Source of the DNA: an uncultured Atribacterota bacterium | Lineage (GTDB): Bacteria; Atribacterota; JALVIU01 | Length of the DNA stretch: 64,000 bases | NCBI GenBank assembly: GCA_964462295.1 | Contig: CAYWXH010000003.1 | Coordinates: forward strand, 9,653-73,652 | Direction of reading: 5' to 3' | Part shown: piece after piece, positions 4,335 to 54,223 of the stretch | Numbering within the stretch: the stretch's first letter is position 1 | Layout of the letters: every line of letters starts with the position of its first letter | Position numbers and translations under genes: made by a program | Notes under the pieces: generated by a model | What the model was told of the DNA's origin: nothing | Database searches by the model: none | Seen by the model: the letters and a program-made list of their open reading frames with translations, nothing else

Positions 4335-4874
4335 ATGGTATATCTTATTATATTAGCTATTGTTATACTTTATGTTATATTTACTTACAATAAATTAATC
4401 GTACTTAGAAACAGGGTAAAGAATGCATGGGCACAAGTACTTGTGCAGCTTAAGAGAAGGGCAGATCTTATCCCAAATTTGGTAGAGACGGTGAAGGGGT
4501 ATGCCTCTCATGAAAAGACTGTTTTTGAAAATGTTACAAAGGCAAGAACTCAGTTTCTCTCTGCTACTACACCCACGGAACAGATGGAAGCAAGTAATAT
4601 GCTTACAGGGGCATTGAGAACCCTTTTTGCAGTGGCTGAGAACTATCCACAACTTAAGGCAAATGAGAATTTTCTAAAACTTCAAGAAGACCTAACAGAT
4701 ACAGAAAACAAGATTGCATTTTCTCGTGAGTTTTACAATGATACAGTAATGAAATATAACAATGCTATTCAGATGTTCCCTGCTAACCTTTTGGCTGGAA
4801 TGTTTGGTTTTCAACCTGAAAAACTATTTGAGATACCCGAGGAGGATAGGGAGCCCGTTAAGGTTCAATTTTGA
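4335..4874 (+). CDS. lemA: LemA family membrane protein
   Basis: 179 aa. N-terminal TM, then [46 protein letters not shown], characteristic of LemA. ATG directly follows the stop of the upstream gene. Confidence 0.7.
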
Positions 4875-6547
4875 TGAATCCTGTTCAGAAATCTTTTGAA
4901 AAACGAGTCAAAGGAGAAGAGGGCCTTTTTGGAAATGTCTATGGGAAAAGGCTCTCTTTTTTGATTTCTTATCCAAATTATTACAATATTGGTATGGCAA
5001 ATCTTGGATTTCAATCCATATATTATACCTTATTAAGGGATGAGCGGATTTTAGTTGATCGAGCCTTTTTGCCATACCCTGATGAGGAAGATTACCTAAA
5101 GAGGACGAACACCCCTCTCTTTTCTTATACCACTTATATGTCTCTTCAAGATTTCGATATAGTTGCCTTTTCTATATCTTTTGAACCCGATTATCTTAAT
5201 TTTATAAAAATGTTAGACCTTTCTGGCATACCTCTCTATGCAAAAGATAGGGGGAAAGAGTCTCCTCTTATAATAGTGGGAGGGGTTGCCCCAAGTGCCA
5301 ACCCATTGCCTATAAAGCCTTTTGCAGATATATTTGTTATAGGCGAGGGAGAAGAGATTATACATGATATTATAGACCTTGTTATTCATGAAAAAGAGAG
5401 AGAATCTATCCTTAGGATTCTTTCAAAATGGAGAGGAATCTATGTCCCGAAATATCCAGTACATAGGGTAGAGAGGTTATGGGTTGAAGATGTAGATAAA
5501 TATCCTTCAGAGAGTGTGCTTTATTCTAAAGAACAAGAGTTTCCTGATATGCATCTTATAGAGATAGGCAGGGGTTGTGGAAGGGGCTGTAGGTTTTGTA
5601 TGGCAGGTTATATATATAGACCTGTGCGAAACAGAGGATATGATGTTATAATGGAATCTGCAAAGCGTGGTAGTAGGTATAGAAAAAAGGTCGGGCTTGT
5701 AAGTCCAAGTGTATCGGATCATCCTGAAATACTTGATATACTTAGAGGTATCTTAGATATGGGATTAGGTATAGGGATCTCATCTCTTAGGTCAGATTCT
5801 GCAACAAGAGAGCTCTTTGGCCTTTTGAAAAGAGGTGGTTTGAGGACTATCACCCTTGCCCCTGAAGTGGGGACAGATAAGATGAGAGAGGTTATTAATA
5901 AAAATATATACCCTGATCTGCTTTTTGAAAAAATAGGGGATGCCATATCTGAGGGAATAAAGAGTGTTAAGCTTTATTTTTTGGTAGGCCTACCCGAAGA
6001 AACTGATGATGATATAGAAGGGATAGTGGGGCTTATAGAAGATTTGCTTTCCCAATTTAAATCCCTTAGAGAGCTTATTATCAGTATAAATCCCTTTATT
6101 CCAAAACCTCATACCCCATTTGAAGTTTTTCCTCAAGAACGAGAAGATGTGGTAAATAGGCGTCTTTTATATATTGAAAATACTTTGAGAAAGAGGTATA
6201 ATCGAATTAAAATTCTTCCTCGAGAGATTAAGTATTATGTATTACAGGGACTGCTTTCTCGGGGAGGAGAAGAGATTGCTCCTTTCCTTCCAGAGATAGC
6301 CAGAAAAGGTCCCAGAAGGTTTAAGAAGATAGTTCCTTATGAACTAATAGAAAAAACTATCTTTTCTCCTTTAAAGGAGGAAGATCTGCCATGGAGGATT
6401 ATTGATACAATGGTAAGCCCTTCATATCTTGCAAGAGAAAGGAAATTAATGAAAAAGAGAAGATTTACCCCACCATGCCCACCACAGGGGTGTACTATGT
6501 GTGGAGTTTGTCAAGAGAGAGGAGGAATTTATGAAAGATTTGGATGA
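4871..6547 (+). CDS. Radical SAM protein with an N-terminal B12-binding-like (Rossmann) domain and a C-terminal Cys-rich tail
   Basis: 558 aa. CGRGCRFC (CxxxCxxC) radical SAM motif at ~aa 236-243. N-terminal flavodoxin/B12-like region ([22 protein letters not shown]). C-terminal [16 protein letters not shown] overlap with lemA. Confidence 0.75.
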
Positions 6548-18611: not shown

Positions 18612-18625
18612 TAAGAGAGAAAAAA

Positions 18626-18660
18626 GCCCTGACAGCATCTACTGTCAGGGCTTTTTTATT
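18626..18660 (+). terminator. Rho-independent terminator after the PFOR gene
   Basis: gccctgacag-catcta-ctgtcagggc (10-bp GC-rich stem) followed by ttttttatttt. Confidence 0.8.
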
Positions 18661-18742: not shown

Positions 18743-19312
18743 ATGTTTAAAAACAAATGGATGCTTTTTATCTACATTGCGATTATACTTATCTTTCTTC
18801 CTCAACTTATCTTTACATTTATGAACCGTCCGCAAAAGATAGAGGGAGATACAGTAAGTAATGAGAAACTACATTTTTCTCTAACACTACCCAATGACAG
18901 TTGGCATTTTTCTAATTACAGGAAGGCAAAAGACGGTGTTCAAATAGAGATGACTCTAAAGGATAGAAAAAAAGATTTTCCTGTTATTGTAGTAGGGGTT
19001 GTAAAGCCCAAAAAACCTCTATCTGAAGAAGAGCTAAATAAGTTTTTTTTAAATGTTCCAAAACAAAAGACCTACAAAGAAGGCGGAAAGATGATCTCTG
19101 GTGTGAATGAAATTACATTTAAAGGAGTTCCAGCACAAGAGGCAGAATATGACCTTACATTAAAAAAGGGTGATAAGCATTTTAGACTTAAATTAATACT
19201 TATACAAAAAGATGGGATATATTATATAATAAGTTTTGCTGCCAATTTTGATGAATATGATAACCAATATAAAGATTTTGAAAAATTCGTAGAACTTTGG
19301 AAATTTATATAG
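18743..19312 (+). CDS. Hypothetical protein with an N-terminal transmembrane anchor
   Basis: 189 aa. MFKNKWMLFIYIAIILIFLPQLIFTF TM segment. No recognised domain. SD GGAAAGGAG. Confidence 0.4.
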   Translation: MFKNKWMLFIYIAIILIFLPQLIFTFMNRPQKIEGDTVSNEKLHFSLTLPNDSWHFSNYRKAKDGVQIEMTLKDRKKDFPVIVVGVVKPKKPLSEEELNKFFLNVPKQKTYKEGGKMISGVNEITFKGVPAQEAEYDLTLKKGDKHFRLKLILIQKDGIYYIISFAANFDEYDNQYKDFEKFVELWKFI

Positions 19313-19327
19313 AACCTAGGAGAAAAA

Positions 19328-19507
19328 ATGGGTAAGCATGAAGTTTCTAAGACTGTCTCAATTAAAATAAATGGAGAGGGTATAGAGGTAAATAAATTTG
19401 TGGGAGAGTTTTTAAAGGGTGCGATAAGGGGAATTTTAAAAAGTTTAAAGGGAATACCTAAAGAATTAAAAAAGGTAGAGATTATTATAGAAGATGATAA
19501 GGGGTGA
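19328..19507 (+). CDS. Small ORF (59 aa) with a strong SD, immediately upstream of the AMMECR1 gene
   Basis: MGKHEVSKTVSIKINGEGIEVNKFVGEFLKGAIRGILKSLKGIPKELKKVEIIIEDDKG. AGGAG lies 7 nt before ATG 19328. Stop TGA 19505-19507 overlaps the SD of the next gene. Below the ORF-track length cutoff. Confidence 0.35.
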   Translation: MGKHEVSKTVSIKINGEGIEVNKFVGEFLKGAIRGILKSLKGIPKELKKVEIIIEDDKG

Positions 19508-19513
19508 TTGTAT

Positions 19514-20029
19514 ATGGAAAAGAGTCCTCATGCACATCTTGCAAGATTAACCATTGAGAAATATATAAGAAATGGTCAAATAATAGATGTTCCTCCAGAT
19601 ACACCTAGTGAGCTTTTAGAAAAAAGGGCAGGTGTATTTGTAACTCTTCATAAACATGGAAGATTGAGGGGATGTATAGGCACTTTTATGCCTACCCAGG
19701 AAAATATTGCCAAAGAGATAATAAGAAACGCTATAGCAGCGGCTACAGAAGATCCACGTTTTCCCCCTGTAGAAGAAGAAGAGCTACCTGAGATTGAAAT
19801 ATCTGTAGATGTGCTTTCTGAGCCAGAAGAGGTAGAAGATATAGAGGAACTTGATCCTAAAAAGTATGGCATTATAGTGGAAAGTGGTTTTAAAAGAGGA
19901 CTCTTGTTGCCCGACATAGAAGGTGTAGATACGGTAGAAGAACAAATAGAGATTACAAAGAGAAAAGCCGGAATTTATCCAGGTGAACCTATTAAGATAT
20001 ACAAATTTACTGTAAAGAGGTATCATTAA
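19514..20029 (+). CDS. AMMECR1-domain protein (AmmeMemoRadiSam system protein A type)
   Basis: [18 protein letters not shown] with the conserved Cys. Acidic insert. ORF-track start 19508 is TTG; ATG 19514 preferred. Confidence 0.75.
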
Positions 20030-20031
20030 GT

Positions 20032-21051
20032 ATGATGAAGGAGGCCTTGTTTTATACCTCACATGATAGGGGTGTGAGGTGTCTTTTGTGCCCTAAGGGG
20101 TGTTTGATTGATGATGGTAAAAGGGGTGATTGCAGGGTTAGATTAAACAACAAAGGGATTTTATATACACTAAACTATGGCAAGGTGACCGCACTTTCCT
20201 ATGATCCTATAGAAAAGAAACCCCTTTATCACTTTCTGCCAGGTAGTTATATATTCTCTATAGGGACATTTGGATGTAATTTTTCATGTCCTTTTTGCCA
20301 AAACTGGGAAATATCTCAGGCTACAGAGGTAGATATACCTTCAAAAGATATCTCTTTAGAAGACCTTATCTTATACGGAAAAAAATATGGTTCTGTAGGT
20401 GTGGCATTTACATACAATGAACCTACTATTTGGTATGAGTTTATAAGAGATAGTGCACCGCTAATTAAACAAAATGGGTTAAAAGTAGTTTTGGTGACAA
20501 ACGGGTATATAAATCCCCTTCCTCAGAGAGAACTTCTGCCTTATGTGGATGCTATGAATATAGACCTTAAGGCCTTTAGTGATGAATTTTATGTAAAATA
20601 TACAGGTGGACATTTATTACCCGTGTTAAGGGCTATAGAACAGGCACATGATAGAGGGATTCATGTAGAGATTACAAATCTTATTATTACAGGACTAAAT
20701 GATAGTAAAGAAGATATAAGTGCCCTTGTGGATTGGGTTTATCAACTTGATCCCAAAATTCCTTTACATTTTTCCCGATATTTTCCTGCCTATAAGATGA
20801 ACCGTCCACCTACTTCTTTAGCTACTATAGAAATGGCTTACAATATGGCACGAGAAAGGCTTTACTATGTATATATGGGAAATGTCTTAAACCCAGAGGG
20901 GAATACTACCTATTGTAAAAATTGTGGTAAGCCTATTATTGAAAGAAGGGGCTATGAAATCACTTCATATAATATAGATGGTGATAGATGTAAATTCTGT
21001 GGTGAAAGGGTAGATGGAGTGTTTGAAGTAAACAGAGATTTAGAGGAGTAA
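20032..21051 (+). CDS. AmmeMemoRadiSam system radical SAM enzyme (PflA-like activase family)
   Basis: 339 aa. CNFSCPFCQNW radical SAM cluster motif. N-terminal CLLCPKGC and C-terminal CKNCGK..CKFCG extra Cys motifs. 2-nt gap after the AMMECR1 gene. Confidence 0.75.
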   Translation: MMKEALFYTSHDRGVRCLLCPKGCLIDDGKRGDCRVRLNNKGILYTLNYGKVTALSYDPIEKKPLYHFLPGSYIFSIGTFGCNFSCPFCQNWEISQATEVDIPSKDISLEDLILYGKKYGSVGVAFTYNEPTIWYEFIRDSAPLIKQNGLKVVLVTNGYINPLPQRELLPYVDAMNIDLKAFSDEFYVKYTGGHLLPVLRAIEQAHDRGIHVEITNLIITGLNDSKEDISALVDWVYQLDPKIPLHFSRYFPAYKMNRPPTSLATIEMAYNMARERLYYVYMGNVLNPEGNTTYCKNCGKPIIERRGYEITSYNIDGDRCKFCGERVDGVFEVNRDLEE

Positions 21052-21053
21052 AG

Positions 21054-22070
21054 ATGGGGATACCAATTTTTAAAAAAAGAGTAGGTATAGACCTTGGAAC
21101 TGCGTATACTTTGATTTATTTAAAGGGAAAGGGTATCATCTTAAATGAGCCTTCTGTGATAAGTGTCTACAAAGACTCTAAACAAGTTATAGAGGTAGGA
21201 CGAAGGGCAAAAAGGATGTTGGGAAGGGCCCCTTACTATATAGATGTGGTAAGACCTCTTAGGTATGGTGTAATCTCTGAACTTGAGTATGCCATCCTTA
21301 TGCTCAAGGAATTTTTGGAAATTGTTGATGTAAAACCGGGATTTTTTACGGGATTAGAGACAATAGTTTGTGTCCCCTCTGCAGTAAGTACGGTTGATAA
21401 AAGGGCGGTACTTGAGCTTTCATATAGATTAGGGGCAAAAAGGGCATACCTTATTTCAGAACCAATAGCAGCTGCCATTGGTGCAGGTATGAATATTTTT
21501 GAATCTATAGGGAGTTTTATAATAGATATTGGTGGAGGTACAAGTGAATCTGCTATTATATCCCTAGGAGGACTTGTAGAAAATGAAATTACCTCTGTAG
21601 CAGGGGACAGGATGAATGAAGAAGTCATAAGATTGTTTAAAAATAAGTACAAAATTCTTATAGGAGAACAAATGGCAGAGGCTATAAAGGTAAACCTTGG
21701 TATAATAGATGATCCTGATGAGAGGTATTATGCAAAGGGAAGAGACCTTGTTACAGGTCTCCCCACAGCGCAAGAGATAAGCGCAGGGGAGTTACGGGAG
21801 GCCTTAACACCTTTAATAGATGAAATCATAAGGGTTTTGAGAGAAACCCTTATGAAGGCCAATCCTGAAATCCATAGTGATATAATGGAGAGGGGATTGG
21901 TTTTGTCAGGAGGAGGTGCACTTATAAAAGGATTAGATACATATATAAGGGATAAATTGGAAATTCCTGTTATCTTTGCCCCTCAACCCCTTTACTCTGT
22001 TATAAATGGTATAGCAGAGGTATTTAAAAACCCTAATAAATACGCAGATGTACTGATTAAGATGGAATAG
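21054..22070 (+). CDS. mreB: Rod-shape-determining protein MreB (actin homologue)
   Basis: 338 aa. GIDLGTAYTLIY, EPSVISV, IDIGGGTSE. Confidence 0.85.
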   Translation: MGIPIFKKRVGIDLGTAYTLIYLKGKGIILNEPSVISVYKDSKQVIEVGRRAKRMLGRAPYYIDVVRPLRYGVISELEYAILMLKEFLEIVDVKPGFFTGLETIVCVPSAVSTVDKRAVLELSYRLGAKRAYLISEPIAAAIGAGMNIFESIGSFIIDIGGGTSESAIISLGGLVENEITSVAGDRMNEEVIRLFKNKYKILIGEQMAEAIKVNLGIIDDPDERYYAKGRDLVTGLPTAQEISAGELREALTPLIDEIIRVLRETLMKANPEIHSDIMERGLVLSGGGALIKGLDTYIRDKLEIPVIFAPQPLYSVINGIAEVFKNPNKYADVLIKME

Positions 22071-22076
22071 GAAGAT

Positions 22077-22904
22077 ATGTTTTATAGACAAAAAAGGAAT
22101 AATAAATATCTATATCTATTTCTTGCTATAGTATTTTTTTCATTAATTTTAATTACTGTTACATATAAGTTTTCTATAGATCAGTATAGATTTTCTTATC
22201 CATTTTCCCGCATATTTTCAGAGGTATCCATCTTTTTTCAATCTCTTTATAAAAATGTAGTAAACTATATCTCAATATTTACTGAATATAAAAAGATAAA
22301 GGTTCAAAATCAAGAATTGAAAAAAAGCTTATCTATCTTGATAAATGAGAACAATCAACTTAGGGAAAAGCTCTCATACTATAAAAGATGGAATAAGATG
22401 CTAAAATACAAGGAACACTCTTCTTTTAAGCTTATTCCGGCAAATGTAGTAGGAAGGGAACCTTCTGCCTGGTTTCAGTATATATTTATAGATAAAGGGA
22501 AAAAAGATGGAATAAAAAAGGACATGGTAGTAATTACCTATTTAGGTCTTGTGGGAAAAATAAAGGCAGTAGGCCCGAGAACATCAAAAGTTATGCTTAT
22601 CCTTGATGCAAAAAGTTCTTTGGGAGGGATGATCCAAAGAACGAGAGATATAGGTGTTATAGAGGGTTTAGGTAAGGAATACTTGAGAATGATATATATA
22701 AATAATTTGGCAAATATATATAAAGGTGATATAGTTATTACCTCTGGTCTTGGAGGTATTTATCCAAAGGGTATAGCAGTGGGATATGTTTTTCGGATAG
22801 AAAAAGAGCTTGACAAGTTATACCAAAAGGTTTATATTACCCCTCGAGTGGATTTTATGCATCTTGAAGAGGTATTTATAATTAAGGGTAAGGAGGAAAA
22901 ATGA
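22077..22904 (+). CDS. mreC: Rod-shape-determining protein MreC
   Basis: 275 aa. N-terminal TM plus coiled coil (ENNQLREKLSYYK). C-terminal GDIVITSGLGGIYPKGIAVG. Follows mreB. Confidence 0.7.
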   Translation: MFYRQKRNNKYLYLFLAIVFFSLILITVTYKFSIDQYRFSYPFSRIFSEVSIFFQSLYKNVVNYISIFTEYKKIKVQNQELKKSLSILINENNQLREKLSYYKRWNKMLKYKEHSSFKLIPANVVGREPSAWFQYIFIDKGKKDGIKKDMVVITYLGLVGKIKAVGPRTSKVMLILDAKSSLGGMIQRTRDIGVIEGLGKEYLRMIYINNLANIYKGDIVITSGLGGIYPKGIAVGYVFRIEKELDKLYQKVYITPRVDFMHLEEVFIIKGKEEK

Positions 22905-24169
22905 TAGTATTCAAAACTGTGGATGATAAACTTAAAGTGGTAGCAAAAGAGATGTCCCATGTGGAGTCTGTATCTGTAATTGTTTGGATAAAAACAGGGT
23001 CAAGGTATGAACCTAAGGAGCTAAACGGTATTTCTCATTTAATAGAACATATGGTATTTAAGGGTTCAAAAAAGAGAGATAATGCCCTTAAAATCTCCCT
23101 TGCTATAGAAGAGATAGGGGGAAAGATAAATGCCTTTACATCAGAAGAATACACTGGTTTTTATGTAAAGGTACCGGCAAATTACTTATCTTTAGGGTTA
23201 GATGTCTTATCTGATATGATATTTAATCCTTTGTTAAGAGAAGAAGACCTTGTAAAAGAAAAAAAGGTAGTAATGGAAGAGATAAAGAGATATTATGATA
23301 TACCTGAAGAGTGGGTAGAGACTCTACTTACAAAGGCTGTTTGGGGAGATCATCCATTGGGAAGAGATATATTAGGTACCATAGAATCAGTCTCAGGTAT
23401 AACCAAAAAGGATATAGAGGATTTTATGAAGAAGTACTATGCCCCTTACAATATTACACTGAGTATAGCAGGTAAGATTTCCTTTGAGGAGATATTTAAA
23501 TTATCAAAGGACTATTTTCTTATAGATAGGGATGGTGTGCCATCTAATTTTTTAAAGGCAGATGATAAGATTCAAGGTGATAAGTTTATAATAGAACATA
23601 GGAAGATAAATCAGACCCATCTTTCTATGGCATTTTTGTCTTTTCCTCGTGGGGATAAGAAAAGATACGCCCTATCCCTTATGAGTATAATCCTAGGTTC
23701 AGGAATGAGTTCGAGACTCTTCCAGAGATTGAGAGAAGAAAAGGGATTAGTTTATGATATCTCTACTTATCCTGTCTATTTTACAGATACGGGGATCTTT
23801 AAAATCGGAGCAGGAATAGATCCTAAAAGGACTAAAGAGGCTATATATGCTATACAGGAAGAGTTACAAAAAATGAAAGAATTCCACAATGAGAAGGAGC
23901 TTAGAAAGGCAAAAGAATATTATAAAGGGAGTTTCCTTATAAGTCTTGAGGATTCGCTTACCCAATCTTCATTTGTAGGAAAGTGGACTATGTTAGAGGG
24001 AAATCCTCCAGATATATCAGAATTTATAGAGCAGACTGAAAGGGTTACTACAGATGATGTAAGAGAACTTGCAAATACAATATTTACATATGAAAGAGAG
24101 GCCGCTTCAATAATTTTTCCTGAGGATCTACATCTTGACCACAAGGAGTTGTTCTTTAAAGACCTATGA
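22901..24169 (+). CDS. M16-family zinc peptidase (pitrilysin-like)
   Basis: 422 aa. Inverted zinc motif HLIEHMVFKGS (HxxEH). ATGA overlap with mreC. Confidence 0.8.
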   Translation: MIVFKTVDDKLKVVAKEMSHVESVSVIVWIKTGSRYEPKELNGISHLIEHMVFKGSKKRDNALKISLAIEEIGGKINAFTSEEYTGFYVKVPANYLSLGLDVLSDMIFNPLLREEDLVKEKKVVMEEIKRYYDIPEEWVETLLTKAVWGDHPLGRDILGTIESVSGITKKDIEDFMKKYYAPYNITLSIAGKISFEEIFKLSKDYFLIDRDGVPSNFLKADDKIQGDKFIIEHRKINQTHLSMAFLSFPRGDKKRYALSLMSIILGSGMSSRLFQRLREEKGLVYDISTYPVYFTDTGIFKIGAGIDPKRTKEAIYAIQEELQKMKEFHNEKELRKAKEYYKGSFLISLEDSLTQSSFVGKWTMLEGNPPDISEFIEQTERVTTDDVRELANTIFTYEREAASIIFPEDLHLDHKELFFKDL

Positions 24170-27835: not shown

Positions 27836-28635
27836 AGGAAAGATTAGATCAATTGTTGGTAGAACAGGGATTTTTTGAAACCAGGGAGAGGGCCAAAAGG
27901 GCTATTATAGAAGGCATAGTGGCTGTAGAGGGCTATCAGCATTTAAAGCCAGGTACACGTATTGATGAAAATGCAAAAATCACGATAAAGGATAAAAAAA
28001 GGATTTTTCCCTATGTAAGCCGGGGAGGGTTAAAACTTAAAAAGGCATTAGAGGAGTTCCAGATTATTGTAAAAGATAAGGTGGCTTTGGATATTGGTGC
28101 ATCCACTGGGGGATTTACAGATTGTCTCTTGCAATTTGGTGCAATGAAGGTTTATGCTGTGGATGTAGGATACGGGCAGTTTGATTGGAAACTTAGAAAT
28201 GATTCTCGAGTAGTATTAAGGGAGAGGGTAAATGCAAGATATCTTACAAGAGAAGTAGTACCTGAAGATGTAGATATAGTAGTAATGGATGTCTCTTTTA
28301 TCTCAGTCTCTAAGATTATCCCATCTGTTTTATCATTTTTAAAAGATGAAGGAGATATAATAATACTTGTAAAACCTCAATTTGAGGCAGGGAAAGAGGA
28401 TGTAGGGAAAGGGGTAATAAGAGACTCTAAGATTCATAAAAAGGTTATAAAAAGTGTTTTAGATAGATGTGTAGAATTTTCTTTAGGTTTTTTAGGACTT
28501 ACATGGTCTCCGATAAAGGGGCCCAAGGGCAATATGGAATTTTTACTTTGGTGTAAAAAAGGTATAAAATGTACACTGAATATTGAAGAATATATAAATA
28601 GAGTAGTAGAGGAGGCACATAGAAAATTGGATTGA
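27832..28635 (+). CDS. tlyA: TlyA-family rRNA 2'-O-methyltransferase (hemolysin A-like; S4 + FtsJ domains)
   Basis: 267 aa. N-terminal S4 (RLDQLLVEQGFFETRERAKRAI). SAM motif ALDIGASTGGFTDCLL. Confidence 0.85.
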   Translation: MKERLDQLLVEQGFFETRERAKRAIIEGIVAVEGYQHLKPGTRIDENAKITIKDKKRIFPYVSRGGLKLKKALEEFQIIVKDKVALDIGASTGGFTDCLLQFGAMKVYAVDVGYGQFDWKLRNDSRVVLRERVNARYLTREVVPEDVDIVVMDVSFISVSKIIPSVLSFLKDEGDIIILVKPQFEAGKEDVGKGVIRDSKIHKKVIKSVLDRCVEFSLGFLGLTWSPIKGPKGNMEFLLWCKKGIKCTLNIEEYINRVVEEAHRKLD

Positions 28636-29150
28636 GCTATTTTTTGTTTCTGATTCTAATCTTATCTCTTTTCTGGTTTTTCCTCTTATGGTTACCAAAG
28701 AGATTGCAAAAGGAAAGATTTAAAAAGAGAATGTTAAGTGGAAAGACGGCCGAAAAAGAGGCAGAGGAAATTCTAAGAAAAAGAGGATACAAGATACTAT
28801 CCTATCAGAAGAGAGACAAGTATGAAATTATAGTAGATAATGAACCCTACCAGATAACTGTTATTGCTGATTTTCTTGTAGAAAAAAGAGGAAGGAAGTA
28901 TGTAGTAGAGGTAAAAACCGGAAGAGATGCCCCCTCTATTAAAAACTCTACAACAAGAAGACAGCTTCTTGAGTATTATTATGTATTTAAACCAGATGGT
29001 ATATTACTTGTAGATATGGAGAATGGACTATTTCATCATATAGAATTTCTCTTTCCGTACAGACATAATATTTATAATTACATAATCTATTTTATAGTCG
29101 GCTTTCTTGCTGGAGGTGTAATATTATATTTGATCATGAGGATAAAATGA
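28632..29150 (+). CDS. Membrane-anchored hypothetical protein with a PD-(D/E)xK-nuclease-like core
   Basis: 172 aa. TM helices at both ends. Soluble middle part has a D(ADFLV)...E-V-K (RKYVVEVKTG) pattern resembling PD-(D/E)xK. Confidence 0.3.
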   Translation: MSYFLFLILILSLFWFFLLWLPKRLQKERFKKRMLSGKTAEKEAEEILRKRGYKILSYQKRDKYEIIVDNEPYQITVIADFLVEKRGRKYVVEVKTGRDAPSIKNSTTRRQLLEYYYVFKPDGILLVDMENGLFHHIEFLFPYRHNIYNYIIYFIVGFLAGGVILYLIMRIK

Positions 29151-40310: not shown

Positions 40311-41372
40311 ATGCCTGGACAAGAAAAGACTGAAAAACCTACGCCTCGGCGCAGGAGGGAAGCAAGGAAAAAGGGGCAAGTTGCAAAGAGTCAAGAGCTA
40401 AATAATGTAGTTATTATCTTGGCGGCAACCCTTTTTTTTCTCTTTTTGGGAACTGTCTTTTTTAAAGGTCTATTTCAAATAATGAAGGCTGTATTTTCAG
40501 GTCTTTATACGATAGATGTCTCTGCAAATAGTTTTTTTTCCTATTTTTCGAAGGGTGTAGGTGTCATTTTTAAGTTGATGATGCCTATGATCGTTATTTT
40601 AATGGTGGCAGGTATTTTAGTTGGGGTCAGCCAAACAGGCCTTATGTTTTCTTTTGAATCTATTTCCCCTAAATTTGATAGAATAAATCCTATAAAAGGT
40701 GCACAAAAGCTTTTTTCAAAAAGGGGAGTCATGGAGGTTGCAAAGGCCCTTTTTAAGGTAGGGGGTATAAGTTATATAATTTTTTCTAGTATACGACTTA
40801 ATGTTTCTATATTTTCCAATTATACCTATATGGATATAGGAGAGATAGTCTCTTCTTTTGTGAAAATTCTTTTTGGTACCATGTTTAAGATTATAGGATT
40901 TTTATTTATAATAGCTATACTAGACTATGCCTTTCAGAAATACGAATTTGAAAAAAGTATTATGATGACAAAACAAGAGGTAAAAGATGAATATAAACAG
41001 ACAGAAGGGGATCCTCAAGTAAAGTCTCGTATAAGAAGTATGCAAAGACAGATGGCAAGACAGAGGATGATGCAGGAGGTTCCTAAGGCAAAGGTTGTAA
41101 TTACAAACCCTGTTCACCTTGCCGTTGCCTTAAAGTATGAAAGCGGTATGAGGGCCCCTGAAGTTGTGGCAAAAGGTGCAAGACTTATTGCAGAGAAGAT
41201 AAAAGAGATAGCACGAGAAAATCATATACCGATAGTAGAGAACCCTCCCCTTGCGCGAGAACTTTATGAAAAAGTGGAGATCGGAGAAGAGATACCAAAG
41301 GAATTGTATAGGGCTGTAGCTGAAGTGTTGGCATATATATACAAAATGGAAAATGCTCGGGTAAGAATATGA
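40311..41372 (+). CDS. flhB: Flagellar biosynthesis protein FlhB (type III export gate, substrate-specificity switch)
   Basis: 353 aa. N-terminal basic region. Four TM helices. Autocleavage-region NPVH motif. C-terminal domain. Confidence 0.85.
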
Positions 41373-41373
41373 T

Positions 41374-43443
41374 ATGAATACTCTTGTAGAACGCATCATA
41401 AATCAAAAAGACCTTTTGATAGCTGTTGGAGTGGTGGGGATTTTGGGTATGATAATCATACCACTTCCTCCGCCTATACTTGATCTTTTTTTCGCCACAA
41501 ATATTTCACTATCTGTAGTGATACTCCTTTTGACTATGTACATAAAAAAACCCTTAGATCTTTCTGTGTTTCCGTCTTTGCTTTTGATTACAACACTTTT
41601 TAGGTTAGCGCTTAATATATCCTCTACAAGATCTATTCTCTTACACGCATATGCAGGAAAGATCATAGATACATTTGGGAAATTCGTAGTAGGAGGAAAT
41701 TATGTAGTAGGTATGGTTGTTTTTCTGATCATTGTTGTTATTCAGTTTGTGGTTATTACAAATGGTGCCCAAAGGGTGGCAGAGGTTGCAGCAAGGTTTA
41801 CCCTTGATGCAATGCCTGGAAAGCAGATGAGTATAGATGCTGACTTAAATGCAGGCCTCATAGATGAAGCAGAGGCAAGGAGAAGGAGAGAAGAGATTAC
41901 AAAAGAGGCCAATTTTTATGGGGCAATGGATGGTGCAAGTAAATTTGTAAGAGGAGATGCCATAGCAGGAATTATTATTACATTTATAAATATAATGGCA
42001 GGGGTAATTATAGGGGTAATGCAACTTGGGATGGCTGCGGATGAGGCACTGAAAAGATACGCACTTTTGACAGTGGGTGATGGCCTTGTTGCACAAATTC
42101 CTGCACTTATCATATCTACAGCTACAGGTATCTTGGTTACTCGAGCATCTGCAGAATCTAATCTGGGGATAGATTTAAGTAACCAGTTTACTTCAAATCC
42201 AAGGATTTTAGCACTTTTGTCCTTTATCTTATTTGGATTAGCTTTAGTTCCTGGTCTTCCGAAGTTTCCATTTTTCTTTCTCTCTGCACTTTCAGGATTT
42301 ACCTCATATGCCCTCCAGAGAGAAGAGTTGGTAAAGGAGGAAGAGGAGGCAAAGAGAGAATTAGAAGAGGAGGAACAGGCAAAACCCCCACCTCAAGAAG
42401 AAGAGACAGTAGAATCATTTCTTCAAGTTGACCCTATGGAACTTGAGATAGGATACTCCCTTATTCCTATAGTAGATCCAGAGCAAGGTGGAGACCTTTT
42501 AAATAGAATTACTATGGTTCGAAAACAGATAGCTATGGACCTTGGAATAATAGTTCCACCTATAAGGATAAGGGATAATGTACAGTTAAAACCTAATACT
42601 TATCAGATAAAAATTCGAGGAGTAAAGGTGGCAGAGGGTGAAGTTATGCCTGGGTACTATCTTGCTATGAATCCCGGTACTGCAGAGAAAAAGATAACTG
42701 GAATAGAGACAAAAGAGCCTGCCTTTGGGCTCCCTGCCTTGTGGATAAAAGAGGAAGATAGAGAGGAAGCGGAGCTTGCAGGATATACTGTGGTAGACCC
42801 TACATCTGTAATCTCTACCCACCTTACAGAGGTGATAAAGAGATATGCACATGAACTTTTGACAAGGGAAGATGTAAAACGTCTTATAGATAATGTAAAG
42901 AAAAATTACCCTGCTGTAGTAGATGAGCTTATCCCTGATGTTATGACTATAGGAGAGGTACAAAAAGTATTGAAGAACTTGCTCAGAGAACAGGTCTCTA
43001 TTAGAGATATGGTAACGATTCTTGAGACATTAGGAGATTATGCTCCACAAGTGAAAGATATAGATTTACTTACAGAATATGTAAGAGTGGCACTAAGTAG
43101 ATCTATAGTGTCAAGGTATCTTGATGAAAATGGTGAGCTTTGGATTATTACATTAGACCCTGAATTAGAAAAAAAGATTGCAGATTCGATACAAAGGACA
43201 GAAGAGGGAAGCTATCTTGCACTCGAGCCTCGATTTGCCCAGAAGTTTCTTCAATCTCTTTCTAAGGAGATGGAGAGGGCAAGTTCTACAGGACACCAGC
43301 CTGTCCTTGTATGTGCTCCAAACCTAAGGAGATATATAAAATTATTTACAGAAAGGGTATTGCCAAATTTAGTAGTTTTATCGTATAATGAAATAAGTAC
43401 TGATATAAATCTTAAAACCGTAGGTATGGTGAGGGTAAGTTGA
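41374..43443 (+). CDS. flhA: Flagellar biosynthesis protein FlhA
   Basis: 689 aa. Conserved FHIPx-like TM region. Acidic linker. C-terminal cytoplasmic domain. Confidence 0.9.
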   Translation: MNTLVERIINQKDLLIAVGVVGILGMIIIPLPPPILDLFFATNISLSVVILLLTMYIKKPLDLSVFPSLLLITTLFRLALNISSTRSILLHAYAGKIIDTFGKFVVGGNYVVGMVVFLIIVVIQFVVITNGAQRVAEVAARFTLDAMPGKQMSIDADLNAGLIDEAEARRRREEITKEANFYGAMDGASKFVRGDAIAGIIITFINIMAGVIIGVMQLGMAADEALKRYALLTVGDGLVAQIPALIISTATGILVTRASAESNLGIDLSNQFTSNPRILALLSFILFGLALVPGLPKFPFFFLSALSGFTSYALQREELVKEEEEAKRELEEEEQAKPPPQEEETVESFLQVDPMELEIGYSLIPIVDPEQGGDLLNRITMVRKQIAMDLGIIVPPIRIRDNVQLKPNTYQIKIRGVKVAEGEVMPGYYLAMNPGTAEKKITGIETKEPAFGLPALWIKEEDREEAELAGYTVVDPTSVISTHLTEVIKRYAHELLTREDVKRLIDNVKKNYPAVVDELIPDVMTIGEVQKVLKNLLREQVSIRDMVTILETLGDYAPQVKDIDLLTEYVRVALSRSIVSRYLDENGELWIITLDPELEKKIADSIQRTEEGSYLALEPRFAQKFLQSLSKEMERASSTGHQPVLVCAPNLRRYIKLFTERVLPNLVVLSYNEISTDINLKTVGMVRVS

Positions 43444-44534
43444 AAATCAAAACTTATAGGGCAACAAATATGCAAAAAGGGCTTATGATGGTAAAAGATG
43501 AGATGGGTCCACAAGCGGTAATTCTTGAAACCCGCAATGTTAAGGTAGGTGGTTTTTTTGGCCTTTTTGCAAAAAAAATGGTAGAGATAGTTGCAGCAAG
43601 TGATTATCCCGAAGATGTAGAAGATAAAATATATAAAGAAAATACACAGGATAATATAGTACAACCTCCCATTCCTCTTTTTAAATACCATACACCTGTT
43701 TTTAAAAGTAAAAAGTTACAGAATCTTTATGAAGTTTTGGTAAAAAATGAATTGGATGAAGCATTTTCTGCAAATTTGGTAGGAGAGATAGAAAGAGAAC
43801 TATCTGGCGATTTGCTAGATGATGATAATGCCTTAATGGAAAAAGTCACAGAGAAACTAGAAGGACTATTTCTATTTTCTGGACCTATAGATATAGATAA
43901 ACCTAATAAAGTTATATTTTTTGTAGGCCCTACAGGGGTAGGTAAAACTACTACAATTGCAAAGATAGCAGCTTTTTTTACGCTTAATATGAAGAAAAAG
44001 GTTGTACTTGTAAGTATAGATACCTTTAGGATAGCAGCAGTAGAGCAGTTAAGAACTTATGCTGAAATCCTTGGGGTACCTTTTAATGTAGTTTTTACCC
44101 CTTTGGAGCTTGAAAGAATAGTAAAGGCTTATAATGATGCAGATCTTATTTTGGTTGATACAGCAGGGAGAAGTCCTAAAAATGAATTGAGAATGTCAGA
44201 ACTTAAGGGATTCGTGACAAAGATTTTTCCTAAAGAGGTGTATCTGGTTTTAAGCATAGGGACAAGATATACAGACCTAAAAGAGGCTGTAGAGAGATTT
44301 ATTCCATTAAATATAGATAAGTTTATATTTACTAAACTTGATGAGTCTAGTCTTTTTCTGGGTAATATGTTTAAATTAATGAAAGAATATCATTTGCCCA
44401 TTTCCTATATCACCTTTGGTCAAAATGTTCCTGATGATATAGATGTGGCAACAATGAATAATATCCTGGAAAGGTGTATGTATGATGAATATCGTTGGGG
44501 ACCAGGCAGCGAAATTAAGGCAAATAGTAATTGA
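43440..44534 (+). CDS. flhF: Flagellar biosynthesis GTPase FlhF (SRP-type GTPase)
   Basis: 364 aa. NG domain FVGPTGVGKTTTIAKIAA, DTAGR. ATGA overlap with flhA. Confidence 0.8.
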   Translation: MKIKTYRATNMQKGLMMVKDEMGPQAVILETRNVKVGGFFGLFAKKMVEIVAASDYPEDVEDKIYKENTQDNIVQPPIPLFKYHTPVFKSKKLQNLYEVLVKNELDEAFSANLVGEIERELSGDLLDDDNALMEKVTEKLEGLFLFSGPIDIDKPNKVIFFVGPTGVGKTTTIAKIAAFFTLNMKKKVVLVSIDTFRIAAVEQLRTYAEILGVPFNVVFTPLELERIVKAYNDADLILVDTAGRSPKNELRMSELKGFVTKIFPKEVYLVLSIGTRYTDLKEAVERFIPLNIDKFIFTKLDESSLFLGNMFKLMKEYHLPISYITFGQNVPDDIDVATMNNILERCMYDEYRWGPGSEIKANSN

Positions 44535-45384
44535 GAGCGGCGAAATACCAGAGGATGTTAAGACTCAACGCCTAAGAAGTATAGCTATTACATCTGGCAA
44601 AGGCGGTGTAGGCAAGACAAATATTGCAACTAATCTTGCAATAGCCCTTGCTGAGAAAACAAATAAAAAAATATATATACTGGATGCTGACCTGGGACTT
44701 GCCAATATTGATGTGATATTAGGGATAACCCCTAAGTACAATCTTGCACATGTAATAAGAGGAGAAAAAGAGTTAGAAGAGATTCTTGTTAAAGGGCCCA
44801 TGGGTGTAAACATAATCCCAGGCACATCTGGAGTCTCTGAACTTGCAAATCTTTCTAAAGAAGAGAGGGAAAGATTTTTAGAGAAACTCTCCTCTTTAGA
44901 AAATGAAGATGGTATACTTATAATAGATACAGGGGCTGGTATAGATGATAATGTATTGGATTTTGTTCTTTCCTCTGATGAGGTTATAGTTGTGACTACG
45001 CCTGAACCTACAGCGATAACTGATGCATATGCCCTTATAAAGATTATAGCCTCATCAAAAAATGATGTGAATATAAATCTTTTGGTAAATATGATAAGAA
45101 AAGAAGAAGAATTTGAATTGGTAACACGGGGGATACTGCTTGTTGCAAAACAGTTTTTAGGAGTAGATGTTAAGAAATTGGGTTATGTATACTATGATAG
45201 CATAGTTTCAAAATCTGTTCTTTCTCAAGATGCTTTTTATATACTCTATCCTGATAGTATTGCTACAAAATGTATAAATAATATTGCACTTTTTCTTCTT
45301 AACAAAAATGATGAGGTAAAAGATGTGAAAAGACCCACTTTCTTTAGAAGACTTTTAAATTCTATAAAGGAAAAGGTTGGTTAA
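44482..45384 (+). CDS. flhG: Flagellar number regulator FlhG (MinD-like ATPase, YlxH/FleN)
   Basis: 300 aa. N-terminal activator motif DQAAKLR. Deviant Walker A SGKGGVGKT. 53-nt overlap with flhF. Confidence 0.8.
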   Translation: MMNIVGDQAAKLRQIVIESGEIPEDVKTQRLRSIAITSGKGGVGKTNIATNLAIALAEKTNKKIYILDADLGLANIDVILGITPKYNLAHVIRGEKELEEILVKGPMGVNIIPGTSGVSELANLSKEERERFLEKLSSLENEDGILIIDTGAGIDDNVLDFVLSSDEVIVVTTPEPTAITDAYALIKIIASSKNDVNINLLVNMIRKEEEFELVTRGILLVAKQFLGVDVKKLGYVYYDSIVSKSVLSQDAFYILYPDSIATKCINNIALFLLNKNDEVKDVKRPTFFRRLLNSIKEKVG

Positions 45385-45387
45385 AAT

Positions 45388-46155
45388 ATGCCCAAACTAG
45401 AGAGTATCTTATCAATTAATGATAATGTATACCTTGAAGTATTAGATGGACCTGTAGGTGGAAAGAATTTTGTTACAAGGGTAGAGGATATTACAAAAGA
45501 TAGTATCGTTTTAGCCGCTCCTTTTGATAGAGAAAGAAAGGTGTATGTGTATCTAAGAAATGGAACAAGGGTAAGAGTTTCTTTTCCTAAAAAAGATGCT
45601 ATATATCAATTTAATGCAAAGATATCAGATTCACGTACGGGAAGGCTTCCATTTGTAGTTATATCAAAACCTAAAGAGATTCTTAGATTTCAGAGAAGGG
45701 AATTTGTAAGACTTGATGATATTATTCGGGTTTCATATAAGATAGCTGTATCAGAAGATATGAAGGTAAAGTACAAATTGGTTGATCGTAAGGAACTTAA
45801 TGATATAGAACTTGGAAGTAAGGAGGATAGATTTTTAAATGGATTTACAAAAAATATAAGTGGGAATGGAATGCTTCTTGTTATAAAAAAAGACATAGCA
45901 AAAATTGGTAATCTCCTTGAAATCTCTTTTACTTTACCAGGAAGGGAAAAGAGATTTAATGTAGTGGGAGAGATAGTTAGGATTGCCGATGAGATAAGGG
46001 TAGACTATCCTGATGAAATAGGTGTAGGGGTAAGATTTGTAAAGATTAATGAAAAAGATAGAACAGAAATAATTAGGTATATTTTTGATAAACAAAGAGA
46101 GATGATAAAGAAAGGTCTGGTGAATCAACGAAGAAAAGGGGGTATAGTAGCATGA
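45388..46155 (+). CDS. PilZ-domain protein, YcgR/MotI-like flagellar brake candidate (c-di-GMP receptor)
   Basis: 255 aa. PilZ motifs QRREFVR and NISGNGM. Located within the flagellar operon. Confidence 0.65.
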   Translation: MPKLESILSINDNVYLEVLDGPVGGKNFVTRVEDITKDSIVLAAPFDRERKVYVYLRNGTRVRVSFPKKDAIYQFNAKISDSRTGRLPFVVISKPKEILRFQRREFVRLDDIIRVSYKIAVSEDMKVKYKLVDRKELNDIELGSKEDRFLNGFTKNISGNGMLLVIKKDIAKIGNLLEISFTLPGREKRFNVVGEIVRIADEIRVDYPDEIGVGVRFVKINEKDRTEIIRYIFDKQREMIKKGLVNQRRKGGIVA

Positions 46156-46772
46156 TAAAATTTGAGGATCTAAAGGATTTCCATCTCGATGTTCTAAAGG
46201 AACTTTCTAACATTGGAATGGGGAATGCCGCCACCTCTCTTTCTCAAATGATAGGACAGAAAGTGGATATAAGAGTTCCTAGGGTTTCCGTATTGCCCTT
46301 TAATGAGATATATACGGTTTTAGGTGAGAGAGAGGCGCTGGTAGGTGGAATTTTTTTTGAAATTGAAGGAGATTTAAATGGAGAAATATTGTTTCTCTTT
46401 CCTACAAAGAGTATTAAACTACTTTTGAGGCTTTTTACAGGGATGGAGGAGGATTTTCCTCCTATATCTGAAATGGCCCAGTCTATGTTACAAGAGGTAG
46501 GGAATATTCTATGTGGGTCTTTTCTAAATGCACTTTCAGAATTTACATCCTTTAAGATCTATCCTACAACACCTGCTTTTGGTATGGACATGGCCGAGTC
46601 CTTGTTAAGTTCTATATTAGTTGCTATAGGGGAGATAGAGGATTATGCACTTATCATAGAGACAGAATTTATCATTGGAGAAGAAGATTTTAATGCCTTT
46701 TTCTTTTTCCTACCAACTCCAGGGTCACTTTCAAAGATATTAAAAGCTGTAGGGGTGGATACAGGTGAGTAA
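46152..46772 (+). CDS. cheC: Chemotaxis protein CheC (CheY-P phosphatase)
   Basis: 206 aa. Two CheC repeats, ELSNIGMGNAATSL and QEVGNILCGSFLNAL. Confidence 0.75.
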   Translation: MIKFEDLKDFHLDVLKELSNIGMGNAATSLSQMIGQKVDIRVPRVSVLPFNEIYTVLGEREALVGGIFFEIEGDLNGEILFLFPTKSIKLLLRLFTGMEEDFPPISEMAQSMLQEVGNILCGSFLNALSEFTSFKIYPTTPAFGMDMAESLLSSILVAIGEIEDYALIIETEFIIGEEDFNAFFFFLPTPGSLSKILKAVGVDTGE

Positions 46773-47990: not shown

Positions 47991-47993
47991 GAG

Positions 47994-49394: not shown

Positions 49395-49408
49395 GGAGGG
49401 TGGGACAG

Positions 49409-49744: not shown

Positions 49745-49769
49745 TAATGAAAAAAGGAGTTTGGAGGGA

Positions 49770-53850: not shown

Positions 53851-53853
53851 AAA

Positions 53854-54216: not shown

Positions 54217-54223
54217 CTTTAAG

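What the first reader, a model, noticed from the sequence alone, without database searches (positions are those of the whole stretch)
19328..21051. AMMECR1 plus AmmeMemoRadiSam radical SAM pair without Memo in the window, preceded by a coupled 59-aa ORF
The AMMECR1-domain gene and the PflA-like radical SAM gene are the classic two-thirds of the AmmeMemoRadiSam system, whose substrate and function are still unknown. No Memo gene is present within 20 kb on either side in this window. A 59-aa ORF with an AGGAG SD lies immediately upstream (MGKHEVSKTVSIKINGEGIEVNKF...). Its stop codon overlaps the SD of the AMMECR1 gene, which suggests translational coupling. A small protein so tightly linked to this system would be a candidate substrate or precursor peptide, or an accessory factor, for the radical SAM enzyme.
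Basis: partly seen in the sequence, partly recalled or inferred. Interest (0 to 1): 0.55.

Follow-up and report, generated by a model that had tools for sequence, protein, structure and literature searches.

The report
Small MobB-type domain gene beside AMMECR1–radical SAM
The 59-codon gene upstream of the AMMECR1 and radical SAM pair is real, but it encodes a small folded domain that elsewhere sits next to or fused to the cofactor-assembly protein MobB, and it accompanies this enzyme pair in only one bacterial lineage, so it is unlikely to be the enzyme's substrate peptide.

Summary
A 59-aa ORF (19328-19507), an AMMECR1 gene (19514-20029; TIGR04335) and an AmmeMemoRadiSam radical SAM gene (20032-21051; TIGR04337) lie head to tail. 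The AMMECR1 Shine-Dalgarno overlaps the small ORF's stop. No Memo/LigB gene is in the 64-kb window.

- The small ORF is a real gene: dN/dS is 0.07-0.13, similar to AMMECR1.
- It is not an orphan peptide. It is a stand-alone copy of an unnamed ~50-aa beta-beta-alpha-beta domain with 202 cluster representatives.
- That domain occurs singly, in tandem, or fused C-terminally to MobB.
- Five of five distant single-domain members sit immediately downstream of mobB. Four of these are in tungsten/molybdenum aldehyde oxidoreductase clusters.
- Among the 80 nearest radical SAM loci from other species, only one carries it. That one is an Atribacteria MAG of the same lineage with the same overall synteny.
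- The tight spacing is not specific. The whole operon, through MreB, MreC and beyond, has gaps of 15 nt or less.
- AMMECR1 plus rSAM without an adjacent Memo/LigB also occurs in Thermotogaceae, and 42 of 80 relatives have the rSAM alone.

Verdict: an ordinary reduced AmmeMemoRadiSam locus with a lineage-specific, uncharacterised small-domain neighbour. Interest is low to moderate.

The parts
18620..18657 (+). Strong bidirectional intrinsic terminator after the PFOR gene. It marks the upstream boundary of the transcription unit that holds the finding.
   Evidence: 16-17 bp stem with 7 G-C pairs, T-runs on both strands. PFOR stops at 18611.
18743..19312 (+). 189-aa PsbP_2-like protein with an N-terminal hydrophobic segment. 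It is the first gene of the unit.
   Evidence: Pfam PF18933 28.7 bits. Conserved in all sister loci. dN/dS 0.02-0.05.
19318..19322 (+). AGGAG Shine-Dalgarno of the small ORF.
   Evidence: Read from the sequence. Sister lineages have GGGAG, GGGG, GAGGGG or AGAGG at the same place.
19328..19507 (+). 59-aa gene: a stand-alone copy of an unnamed ~50-aa beta-hairpin/helix/strand domain (the C-terminal domain of PRK14494-type MobB fusion proteins).
   Evidence: - NCBIfam hits to the last ~50 residues of four PRK14494 models, E ~1e-5.
- 202 cluster representatives in a profile search.
- dN/dS 0.07-0.13.
- AF2 pLDDT 87.7.
- No Pfam family.
19499..19507 (+). AAGGGGTGA: the last two sense codons and stop of the small ORF. 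It doubles as the Shine-Dalgarno of AMMECR1, whose ATG is 6 nt downstream.
   Evidence: Read from the sequence. A purine-rich GG(A/G)G + TGA followed by 5-6 nt and ATG is conserved in five sublineages.
19514..20029 (+). AMMECR1-domain protein (AmmeMemoRadiSam system protein A), 171 aa from the ATG. It contains the LRGCIG motif.
   Evidence: PF01871 181 bits. TIGR04335 159.9 bits against a cut-off of 99. Gene calls in sister contigs use this start.
20032..21051 (+). AmmeMemoRadiSam radical SAM enzyme (PflA-like), 339 aa. It has C82-x3-C86-x2-C89 and extra Cys clusters at the N and C termini. No SPASM domain was detected.
   Evidence: TIGR04337 342.7 bits against a cut-off of 220. PF04055. Motifs read from the translation.
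21054..24169 (+). MreB (21054-22070), MreC (22077-22904) and M16 peptidase (22901-24169). They continue the same tightly packed unit, with gaps of 2, 6 and -4 nt.
   Evidence: They show that tight spacing is not specific to the small ORF and AMMECR1.

Best explanation
**What the locus is.** It is a reduced, two-gene AmmeMemoRadiSam module: stand-alone AMMECR1 plus its PflA-like radical SAM partner. The LigB/Memo-type component is neither fused nor adjacent. The module is embedded in a compact housekeeping operon of an Atribacterota-like thermophile, ordered PsbP-like > small gene > AMMECR1 > rSAM > MreB > MreC > M16 peptidase > DUF951.

**What the 59-aa gene is.** It is a real, translated gene for a single copy of a widespread but unnamed ~50-aa domain made of a beta-hairpin, a long helix and a terminal strand.

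**Inferred mechanism.**
- Two copies pair to form the six-stranded, two-helix platform that the tandem versions form within one chain.
- This platform acts as a small binding or adaptor module, not as a peptide to be modified.
- Family-wide, its preferred partner is MobB, in tungsten/molybdenum-pterin enzyme clusters.
- Its position in front of AMMECR1 arose once, in this lineage. It most likely reflects operon packing or, at most, a lineage-specific accessory role.

**Shown:** gene reality, family membership, family contexts, lineage restriction, absence of Memo and MobB from the window.

**Inferred:** homodimerisation, adaptor function, and lack of a direct role with the rSAM.
For: **Real gene**
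- dN/dS is 0.07-0.13, against 0.06-0.08 for AMMECR1.
- It is conserved in five sublineages, with its own SD.

**Family**
- It matches the C-terminal ~50 residues of four PRK14494 MobB-fusion models.
- A profile search finds 202 representatives. Among the top 157 these are 41 single, 89 tandem, and about 20 fused behind MobB with 1-4 copies.

**Contexts of distant members**
- P0174, P0190, P0192 and P0106 each overlap the 3' end of a mobB gene. They are followed by Fer4/AFOR genes, and in three of the four loci by ThiF, plus ThiS in one.
- P0225 also follows a MobB-like ORF.

**Fold**
- Confident models: 87.7 pLDDT for the window protein, and 91.9 pLDDT with pTM 0.82 for a tandem member showing b-b-a-b twice.
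- In the single-copy model the terminal strand is left unpaired. This fits a need for a second copy.

**Lineage restriction**
- 1 of 80 nearest rSAM loci has the domain, and that locus is the same lineage.
- All lineage loci share the whole synteny.

**Non-specific spacing**
- Operon gaps are 15/6/2/2/6/-4/-4 nt.
- There is a terminator only upstream, at 18620-18657.

**The reduced module is not unusual**
- L077 and L088 (Thermotogaceae) have AMMECR1 plus rSAM without LigB/Memo or a small ORF.
- 42 of 80 have the rSAM alone.
- 34 of 80 have LigB-AMMECR1, fused or split.
Against: - In this lineage the gene has kept its place directly before AMMECR1 at dS above 1, with the SD embedded in its last codons. 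No mobB lies within 64 kb. A lineage-specific functional tie is therefore possible.
- The lineage's proteins carry a conserved N-terminal tail (M-G/S-K-H-x-x-S) that other family members lack. Its purpose is unexplained.
- PflA-like rSAM enzymes act on protein substrates, so a small protein substrate is not absurd a priori.
- Tandem family members sit in varied contexts without MobB, so the family's function is not tied to MobB alone.
Confidence: 0.6

Rival explanations
1. The small protein is a lineage-specific accessory subunit of the AMMECR1-rSAM system. It could be an adaptor that takes over part of the role of the missing LigB/Memo component, or one that delivers a ligand or partner to AMMECR1.
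For: - It occupies the slot directly 5' of AMMECR1. In 30 of 80 related loci that slot is filled by a fused LigB/Memo-like domain.
- The SD/stop overlap is conserved in five sublineages.
- No MobB is in the window.
- The family behaves as an add-on module to another enzyme, MobB.
Against: - The association is seen in only one lineage, where all neighbouring genes are equally conserved.
- 0 of 79 other rSAM loci have it.
- Thermotogaceae have the same two-gene module without it.
- It is not homologous to LigB/Memo.
- Equally tight spacing joins the rSAM to MreB.
Confidence: 0.2
2. The 59-aa product is the substrate or precursor peptide modified by the radical SAM enzyme.
For: - It is a small ORF co-transcribed with an rSAM gene.
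- PflA-like rSAM enzymes act on proteins (established knowledge).
- The conserved, probably disordered N-terminal tail MGKHxxSK has mean pLDDT 72 over residues 1-10.
Against: - It is not conserved with TIGR04337 enzymes outside one lineage, although the rSAM family is widespread.
- It is a well-folded domain whose most conserved part is the core helix, not a leader/core layout.
- There are no Cys and no Gly-rich or repeat core.
- No SPASM or RRE-type domain was detected in the rSAM.
- Homologues are fused to MobB.
Confidence: 0.05
3. The small ORF is a chance or non-translated reading frame in an intergenic leader.
For: It is short and has no Pfam hit.
Against: - dN/dS is about 0.1 with many synonymous changes.
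- 202 homologous cluster representatives were found.
- The structure models are confident.
- It has its own SD.
- It is called as a gene in public assemblies.
Confidence: 0.02

Closest known systems
AmmeMemoRadiSam system (TIGR04335 protein A / TIGR04336 protein B (Memo) / TIGR04337 radical SAM). The AMMECR1 / radical SAM / ring-opening dioxygenase neighbourhood is described in PMC2034487.
   Same: The A and rSAM components score well above the curated cut-offs and are adjacent in the usual order, AMMECR1 then rSAM.
   Different: - No Memo or LigB-type component is fused or within the 64-kb window. By contrast, 34 of the 80 nearest relatives have a LigB(PF02900, weak Memo hit)-AMMECR1 fusion or adjacent pair.
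- An unrelated 59-aa gene lies directly upstream.
PRK14494-type 'MobB/FeS domain-containing' fusion proteins (NCBIfam NF011062-NF011065), and split mobB plus small-gene pairs in AFOR clusters.
   Same: The 59-aa protein aligns to the C-terminal ~50 residues of these models. It shares the family motif (V/I)NG..h.hN.F(V)......G...SLK...IEI with single, tandem and MobB-fused members.
   Different: It is stand-alone. There is no mobB, AFOR or other pterin-cofactor gene in the window. It carries a lineage-specific N-terminal tail and is next to AMMECR1 instead.
Thermotogaceae AMMECR1-rSAM pairs (L077, L088).
   Same: The same reduced two-gene module: stand-alone ~175-aa AMMECR1 1-9 nt upstream of the rSAM, with no LigB/Memo in the flanks.
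   Different: There is no small ORF of this family. The upstream neighbour is a phosphofructokinase, and in L088 the downstream neighbour is ApbE.
Tautomerase/MIF superfamily (short 4-OT-like and tandem MIF-like beta-alpha-beta units). This is an analogy only.

Membership tests
AmmeMemoRadiSam system | Protein A: AMMECR1-domain protein scoring above the TIGR04335 cut-off. | tested here: met
   159.9 bits against a cut-off of 99. PF01871 181 bits.
AmmeMemoRadiSam system | Radical SAM enzyme scoring above the TIGR04337 cut-off, with a CX3CX2C motif. | tested here: met
   342.7 bits against a cut-off of 220. C82-x3-C86-x2-C89 read from the translation.
AmmeMemoRadiSam system | Protein B: a Memo (PF01875/TIGR04336) or LigB-type domain, fused or in the same neighbourhood. 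| tested here: not met
   None in 64 kb. All ORFs of 200 aa or more have other Pfam assignments, and the LigB-domain HMM has no window hit.
AmmeMemoRadiSam system | Memo/LigB-type partner encoded elsewhere in the same genome. | not testable with these tools
   Only the window and 20-kb pieces of sister contigs could be read. The assemblies to search are GCA_054024655.1, GCA_054023915.1 and GCA_054020355.1.
MobB-linked small domain (C-terminal domain of PRK14494-type proteins; no Pfam name) | Profile-level sequence similarity and the shared motif. | tested here: met
   E ~1e-5 to four NCBIfam models over their last ~50 positions. 202 profile hits. N22, F24, G35 and L40 are nearly invariant across 39 single-domain members.
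MobB-linked small domain (C-terminal domain of PRK14494-type proteins; no Pfam name) | Predicted beta-beta-alpha-beta fold. | tested here: met
   AF2 pLDDT 87.7: hairpin at 12-19, helix at 23-39. The tandem member has the same unit twice, including the terminal strand, at pLDDT 91.9.
MobB-linked small domain (C-terminal domain of PRK14494-type proteins; no Pfam name) | Fusion to, or adjacency with, MobB (PF03205). | tested here: not met
   The MobB HMM finds nothing in the window or in sister loci. Tandem members also lack it, so this is a frequent feature of the family, not a universal one.
Radical-SAM-modified precursor peptide (RiPP-like) | Peptide gene co-conserved with the modifying rSAM across lineages. 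| tested here: not met
   0 of 79 non-lineage loci among the 80 nearest rSAM relatives carry it within 10 kb.
Radical-SAM-modified precursor peptide (RiPP-like) | Leader/core organisation with modifiable residues, and a SPASM or RRE domain in the enzyme. | tested here: not met
   Conservation peaks in a structured helix. There is no Cys. No SPASM or RRE hit in the rSAM.
Tautomerase/MIF superfamily | Catalytic N-terminal Pro1, and significant fold or sequence similarity. | tested here: not met

The most novel reading that the evidence does not exclude
In this Atribacterota-like lineage the MobB-type small domain has been recruited as a new third component of the AMMECR1-radical SAM system. It would take the place held elsewhere by the fused LigB/Memo domain. 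If so, it would hint at a shared logic, such as handing over a cofactor or nucleotide-derived ligand, between MobB-assisted pterin-cofactor maturation and the still unexplained AmmeMemoRadiSam chemistry.
Probability: 0.1. Interest if true: 0.55.

Novelty: new member of a known kind. Interest (0 to 1): 0.27.

Why it matters
The function of AmmeMemoRadiSam (and of eukaryotic AMMECR1 and Memo) is still unknown, so a conserved small partner could have offered a handle on its substrate. The comparison shows that this ORF does not provide such a handle. It travels with the system in one lineage only and belongs to a family whose usual partner is MobB.

Two useful by-products remain:
- A widespread ~50-aa domain (single, tandem, and MobB-fused) that has no Pfam entry and no solved structure. 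It may be relevant to tungsten/molybdenum enzyme maturation.
- A count showing that the nearest relatives of this rSAM are mostly paired with LigB-AMMECR1 fusions or stand alone. Absence of Memo from a window is therefore not remarkable.

Tried and rejected
- **Recalled MEMO1 query.** phmmer with a human MEMO1 sequence recalled from memory found nothing in any locus. The query is unverified, so this was discarded. It was replaced by a LigB-domain HMM built from fetched loci, verified by Pfam, and by Pfam scans of the window ORFs.
- **Metagenome scan.** The scan with the lineage alignment A1 gave only two short contigs of the same lineage.
- **PDB sequence search.** Nothing.
- **Literature.** 'AmmeMemoRadiSam' appears only in passing in six papers. 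The Burroughs et al. 2019 JBC paper on Memo-AMMECR1 systems is not held.
- **Promoter scan.** Counts do not exceed shuffles (28 against 25.1), so no internal promoter is claimed.
- **Read-through idea.** In the window the small ORF and AMMECR1 are in the same frame, separated by TGA and two codons. This was considered and dropped because the frame relation is not kept in the L007/L015 sublineage (gene coordinates).
- **dN/dS for the rSAM.** The rSAM comparisons involving L007 are invalid because of an indel misalignment, and were ignored.
Full report
**1. The observation**

The window has a 59-aa ORF at 19328-19507 on the + strand, preceded by AGGAG five bases upstream. Its last codons and stop (AAGGGGTGA, 19499-19507) serve as the Shine-Dalgarno for the AMMECR1 ATG at 19514. 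The ORF listing reports a TTG at 19508, but public gene calls on sister contigs start at the ATG. AMMECR1 ends at 20029 and the radical SAM gene runs 20032-21051.

Both larger genes pass curated thresholds. AMMECR1 scores PF01871 at 181 bits and TIGR04335 (AmmeMemoSam_A) at 159.9 bits against a cut-off of 99. The radical SAM gene scores TIGR04337 (AmmeMemoSam_rS) at 342.7 bits against a cut-off of 220. The rSAM has C82-x3-C86-x2-C89 plus N- and C-terminal cysteine clusters. No SPASM domain was detected.

No Memo or LigB-type protein is encoded anywhere in the 64 kb. Every ORF of 200 aa or more has another Pfam assignment. An HMM of the LigB/Memo-like domain found in related systems has no hit among the window ORFs.

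**2. The small ORF is a real gene**

Close homologues (67-100% identical) exist in several metagenome-assembled genomes. Between three sublineages the ORF shows 13-23 synonymous and 7-21 non-synonymous differences. This gives dN/dS of 0.07-0.13 at dS 0.55-2.3. AMMECR1 next door gives 0.06-0.08. In all five sublineages a purine-rich GG(A/G)G followed by TGA sits 5-6 nt before the AMMECR1 ATG.

**3. What the small protein is**

It is not an orphan.
- NCBIfam matched it, at E about 1e-5, to the last ~50 positions of four PRK14494 models, named 'MobB/FeS domain-containing protein'.
- A profile of the lineage sequences searched against 1.84 billion cluster representatives gave 202 hits at E of 1e-3 or better.
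- Domain parsing of the top 157 hits shows 41 single-domain proteins of about 55 aa, 89 tandem two-domain proteins of about 99 aa, and about 20 proteins with one to four copies behind a MobB domain.
- The shared pattern is h-x-h-x-(V/I)-N-G-x-x-h-x-h-N-x-F-V ... G-h-h-x-S-L-K ... I-E-I. N22, F24, G35 and L40 are nearly invariant.
- Pfam has no model for it, and no PDB entry is related by sequence.

AlphaFold2 models are confident.
- The window protein (pLDDT 87.7) has a beta-hairpin at residues 12-19, a helix at 23-39 and an extended C-terminal segment.
- A tandem member (pLDDT 91.9, pTM 0.82) repeats beta-beta-alpha-beta twice, with the terminal strands incorporated into the sheet.
- From this I infer that single-domain members, including this one, work as homodimers.

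**4. Where the family lives**

I looked up five distant single-domain members on long contigs.
- Four of them (P0174, P0190, P0192, P0106; Aminicenantes/Acidobacteriota-type MAGs) overlap the 3' end of a mobB gene. They are followed by ferredoxin-type and AFOR (tungsten/molybdenum aldehyde:ferredoxin oxidoreductase) genes, and in three of the four loci by ThiF, plus ThiS in one.
- In the fifth (P0225), a + strand ORF with a clear MobB HMM hit (77 bits) ends at the small gene's start, although the deposited gene calls differ.
- Three tandem members (P0248, P0329, P0009) are stand-alone genes with unrelated neighbours.

So the domain is a general small module. In its single-copy form it is typically a split or fused appendage of MobB. 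MobB is a P-loop protein of pterin-cofactor assembly. A 2026 study places a MoeA1-MobB platform at tungstate insertion (PMC13197769).

None of the 237 family proteins collected contains AMMECR1 or the rSAM. The window contains no mobB, AFOR or other pterin-cofactor gene.

**5. Is the small ORF conserved with the system?**

I scanned one genome per species (GTDB r232) with the window's rSAM. This returned the 80 closest loci (46-74% identity), with up to 10 kb of flank on each side.

The best hit, L015 (74%), is titled 'Candidatus Atribacteria bacterium'. This places the window in an Atribacterota-like thermophile lineage. L015 carries the same small protein as the P0005 sublineage.

A search of all ORFs of 35 aa or more in these loci with the family HMM found the domain only in L015. 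None of the other 79 loci has it.

The makeup of the 80 loci is as follows:

| Arrangement next to the rSAM | Loci |
|---|---|
| LigB(PF02900, weak Memo hit)-AMMECR1 fusion | 30 |
| LigB and AMMECR1 as adjacent separate genes | 4 |
| AMMECR1 only | 4 |
| Neither partner in the available flanks | 42 |

- The four AMMECR1-only loci are L015, two Thermotogaceae loci (L077, L088) and one truncated contig.
- Of the 42 loci with neither partner, 26 have at least 3 kb of flank on both sides.

In the Thermotogaceae loci a phosphofructokinase gene, not a small ORF, precedes AMMECR1.

All lineage contigs, including the most divergent (P0007 and L100), share the entire gene order from PFOR to SmpB. Conservation within the lineage therefore cannot separate functional linkage from inherited synteny.

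**6. Operon context**

A strong bidirectional terminator (18620-18657) follows PFOR. After it, the genes run PsbP-like, small gene, AMMECR1, rSAM, MreB, MreC, M16 peptidase and DUF951, with gaps of 15, 6, 2, 2, 6, -4 and -4 nt. The rSAM stop is as close to the MreB start as the small ORF's stop is to AMMECR1. Abutment is a property of this compact genome and is not evidence of a specific partnership. Promoter-like matches do not exceed shuffled expectation.

**7. Explanation and rivals**

*Best explanation (confidence 0.6).* This is a reduced AMMECR1-rSAM module of the known AmmeMemoRadiSam kind, sitting in a housekeeping operon. It is preceded by a stand-alone member of the MobB-linked small-domain family. 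That protein most likely acts as a homodimeric binding or adaptor platform. Its position here arose once, in this lineage.

*Rival 1 (0.2).* The small protein is a lineage-specific accessory subunit of the system.
- In favour: it occupies the slot filled elsewhere by the fused LigB domain; its position has been stable at dS above 1; mobB is absent nearby; and it has a conserved lineage-specific N-terminal tail (MGKHxxSK) of unexplained purpose.
- Against: the association is found in one lineage only.

*Rival 2 (0.05).* It is a substrate or precursor peptide.
- Against: the lack of co-conservation with the rSAM; the folded-domain character, with conservation centred on the helix; no cysteines; and no SPASM or RRE domain detected in the enzyme.

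*Rival 3 (0.02).* It is a spurious ORF. The evidence in section 2 refutes this.

**8. Comparison with what is known, and novelty**

The AMMECR1 / radical SAM / ring-opening dioxygenase neighbourhood and the AMMECR1-dioxygenase fusions were described in 2007 (PMC2034487) and are codified as TIGR04335-04337. The pair here is a member of that system that lacks a local B component, as do the Thermotogaceae pairs.

The small protein is a new stand-alone member of a domain so far recognised only implicitly, as the tail of PRK14494-type MobB fusions. Nothing here is categorically new.

The finding is rated 'new member of a known kind', with interest 0.27.

The most novel reading still open is that the MobB-type domain has been recruited as a third component of the system in Atribacterota, linking two poorly understood maturation systems. 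I give it a probability of about 0.1.

**9. What remains untested**
- Whether Memo/LigB, MobB or AFOR are encoded elsewhere in this genome. Whole assemblies could not be read.
- Whether the small protein dimerises or contacts AMMECR1 or the rSAM. No multimer modelling was available.
- Whether it is modified in vivo.

Noticed in passing
L091 649-1605; L088 6495-7544; about 18 of the 80 rSAM loci (WOR-3, Stahlbacteria, Thermotogaceae): An ApbE-family gene (FAD:protein FMN transferase; PF02424, 264 bits) recurs within 5 kb of the TIGR04337-type radical SAM gene in 18 loci (next to it in L088 and L091). Most of these loci have neither AMMECR1 nor LigB nearby. This is a possible alternative functional partner of this rSAM clade.
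   Followed up: partly
L010 5526-6156; L013 5565-6207; L014 5532-6192: A conserved cluster mobB > small-domain gene (overlapping the mobB stop) > polyferredoxin / AFOR, followed by ThiF in L010 and L013 (plus ThiS in L013), in Aminicenantes/Acidobacteriota-type contigs. The small domain has no Pfam family and no solved structure, and could merit a family definition of its own.
   Followed up: partly
L011 5034-6035 (+) and L012 2390-3391 (+): A + strand ORF with a clear MobB HMM hit (77 bits) ends at the start of the small-domain gene. The deposited gene calls instead place two unannotated genes on the - strand there, which is probably a gene-calling error in the public record.
   Followed up: no
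proteins P0014, P0045, P0084 (MobB fusions and multi-repeat forms): A short conserved motif, C-G-Y-x-(D/N)-(G/N)-x-x-(I/L)-(S/A)-(K/R)-(E/D)-I-x-x-G, sits just before the first small-domain repeat in archaeal-type multi-repeat proteins. Its function is unknown.
   Followed up: no
window 19328-20029: The small ORF and AMMECR1 are in the same reading frame, separated only by TGA and two codons (TTG TAT). The same holds in the L004 sublineage but not in L007/L015, so read-through fusion is unlikely to be conserved.
   Followed up: partly
window 19328-19351 (residues 1-8 of the small protein): The N-terminal tail M-(G/S)-K-H-x-x-S-(K/E) is conserved in the seven close homologues aligned (M1, K3, H4 and S7 invariant) but absent from all other family members. 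Modelled confidence is lower over residues 1-10 (mean pLDDT 72). Its purpose is unexplained.
   Followed up: no
window 4871-6547: A second, unrelated radical SAM protein (Radical_SAM_N2 + Radical_SAM, 558 aa) lies directly after a LemA gene and overlaps the start of a Na+/H+ exchanger gene.
   Followed up: no
window 28632-29150 and 49400-49744: Two conserved-looking ORFs (172 aa and 114 aa) have no Pfam hit. The first lies between the FtsJ/TlyA-like methyltransferase and NAD kinase genes. The second is in the chemotaxis cluster between FapA and CheR.
   Followed up: no
window 40311-57856: A large flagellar export and chemotaxis block (FlhB, FlhA, FlhF, MinD-like ATPase, PilZ/YcgR-like protein, CheC, CheD, a sigma-70-family factor (probably FliA-like), FapA, CheR, CheB, CheA, a single-domain response regulator (probably CheY)) in a genome whose nearest named relative is an Atribacteria MAG.
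   Followed up: no
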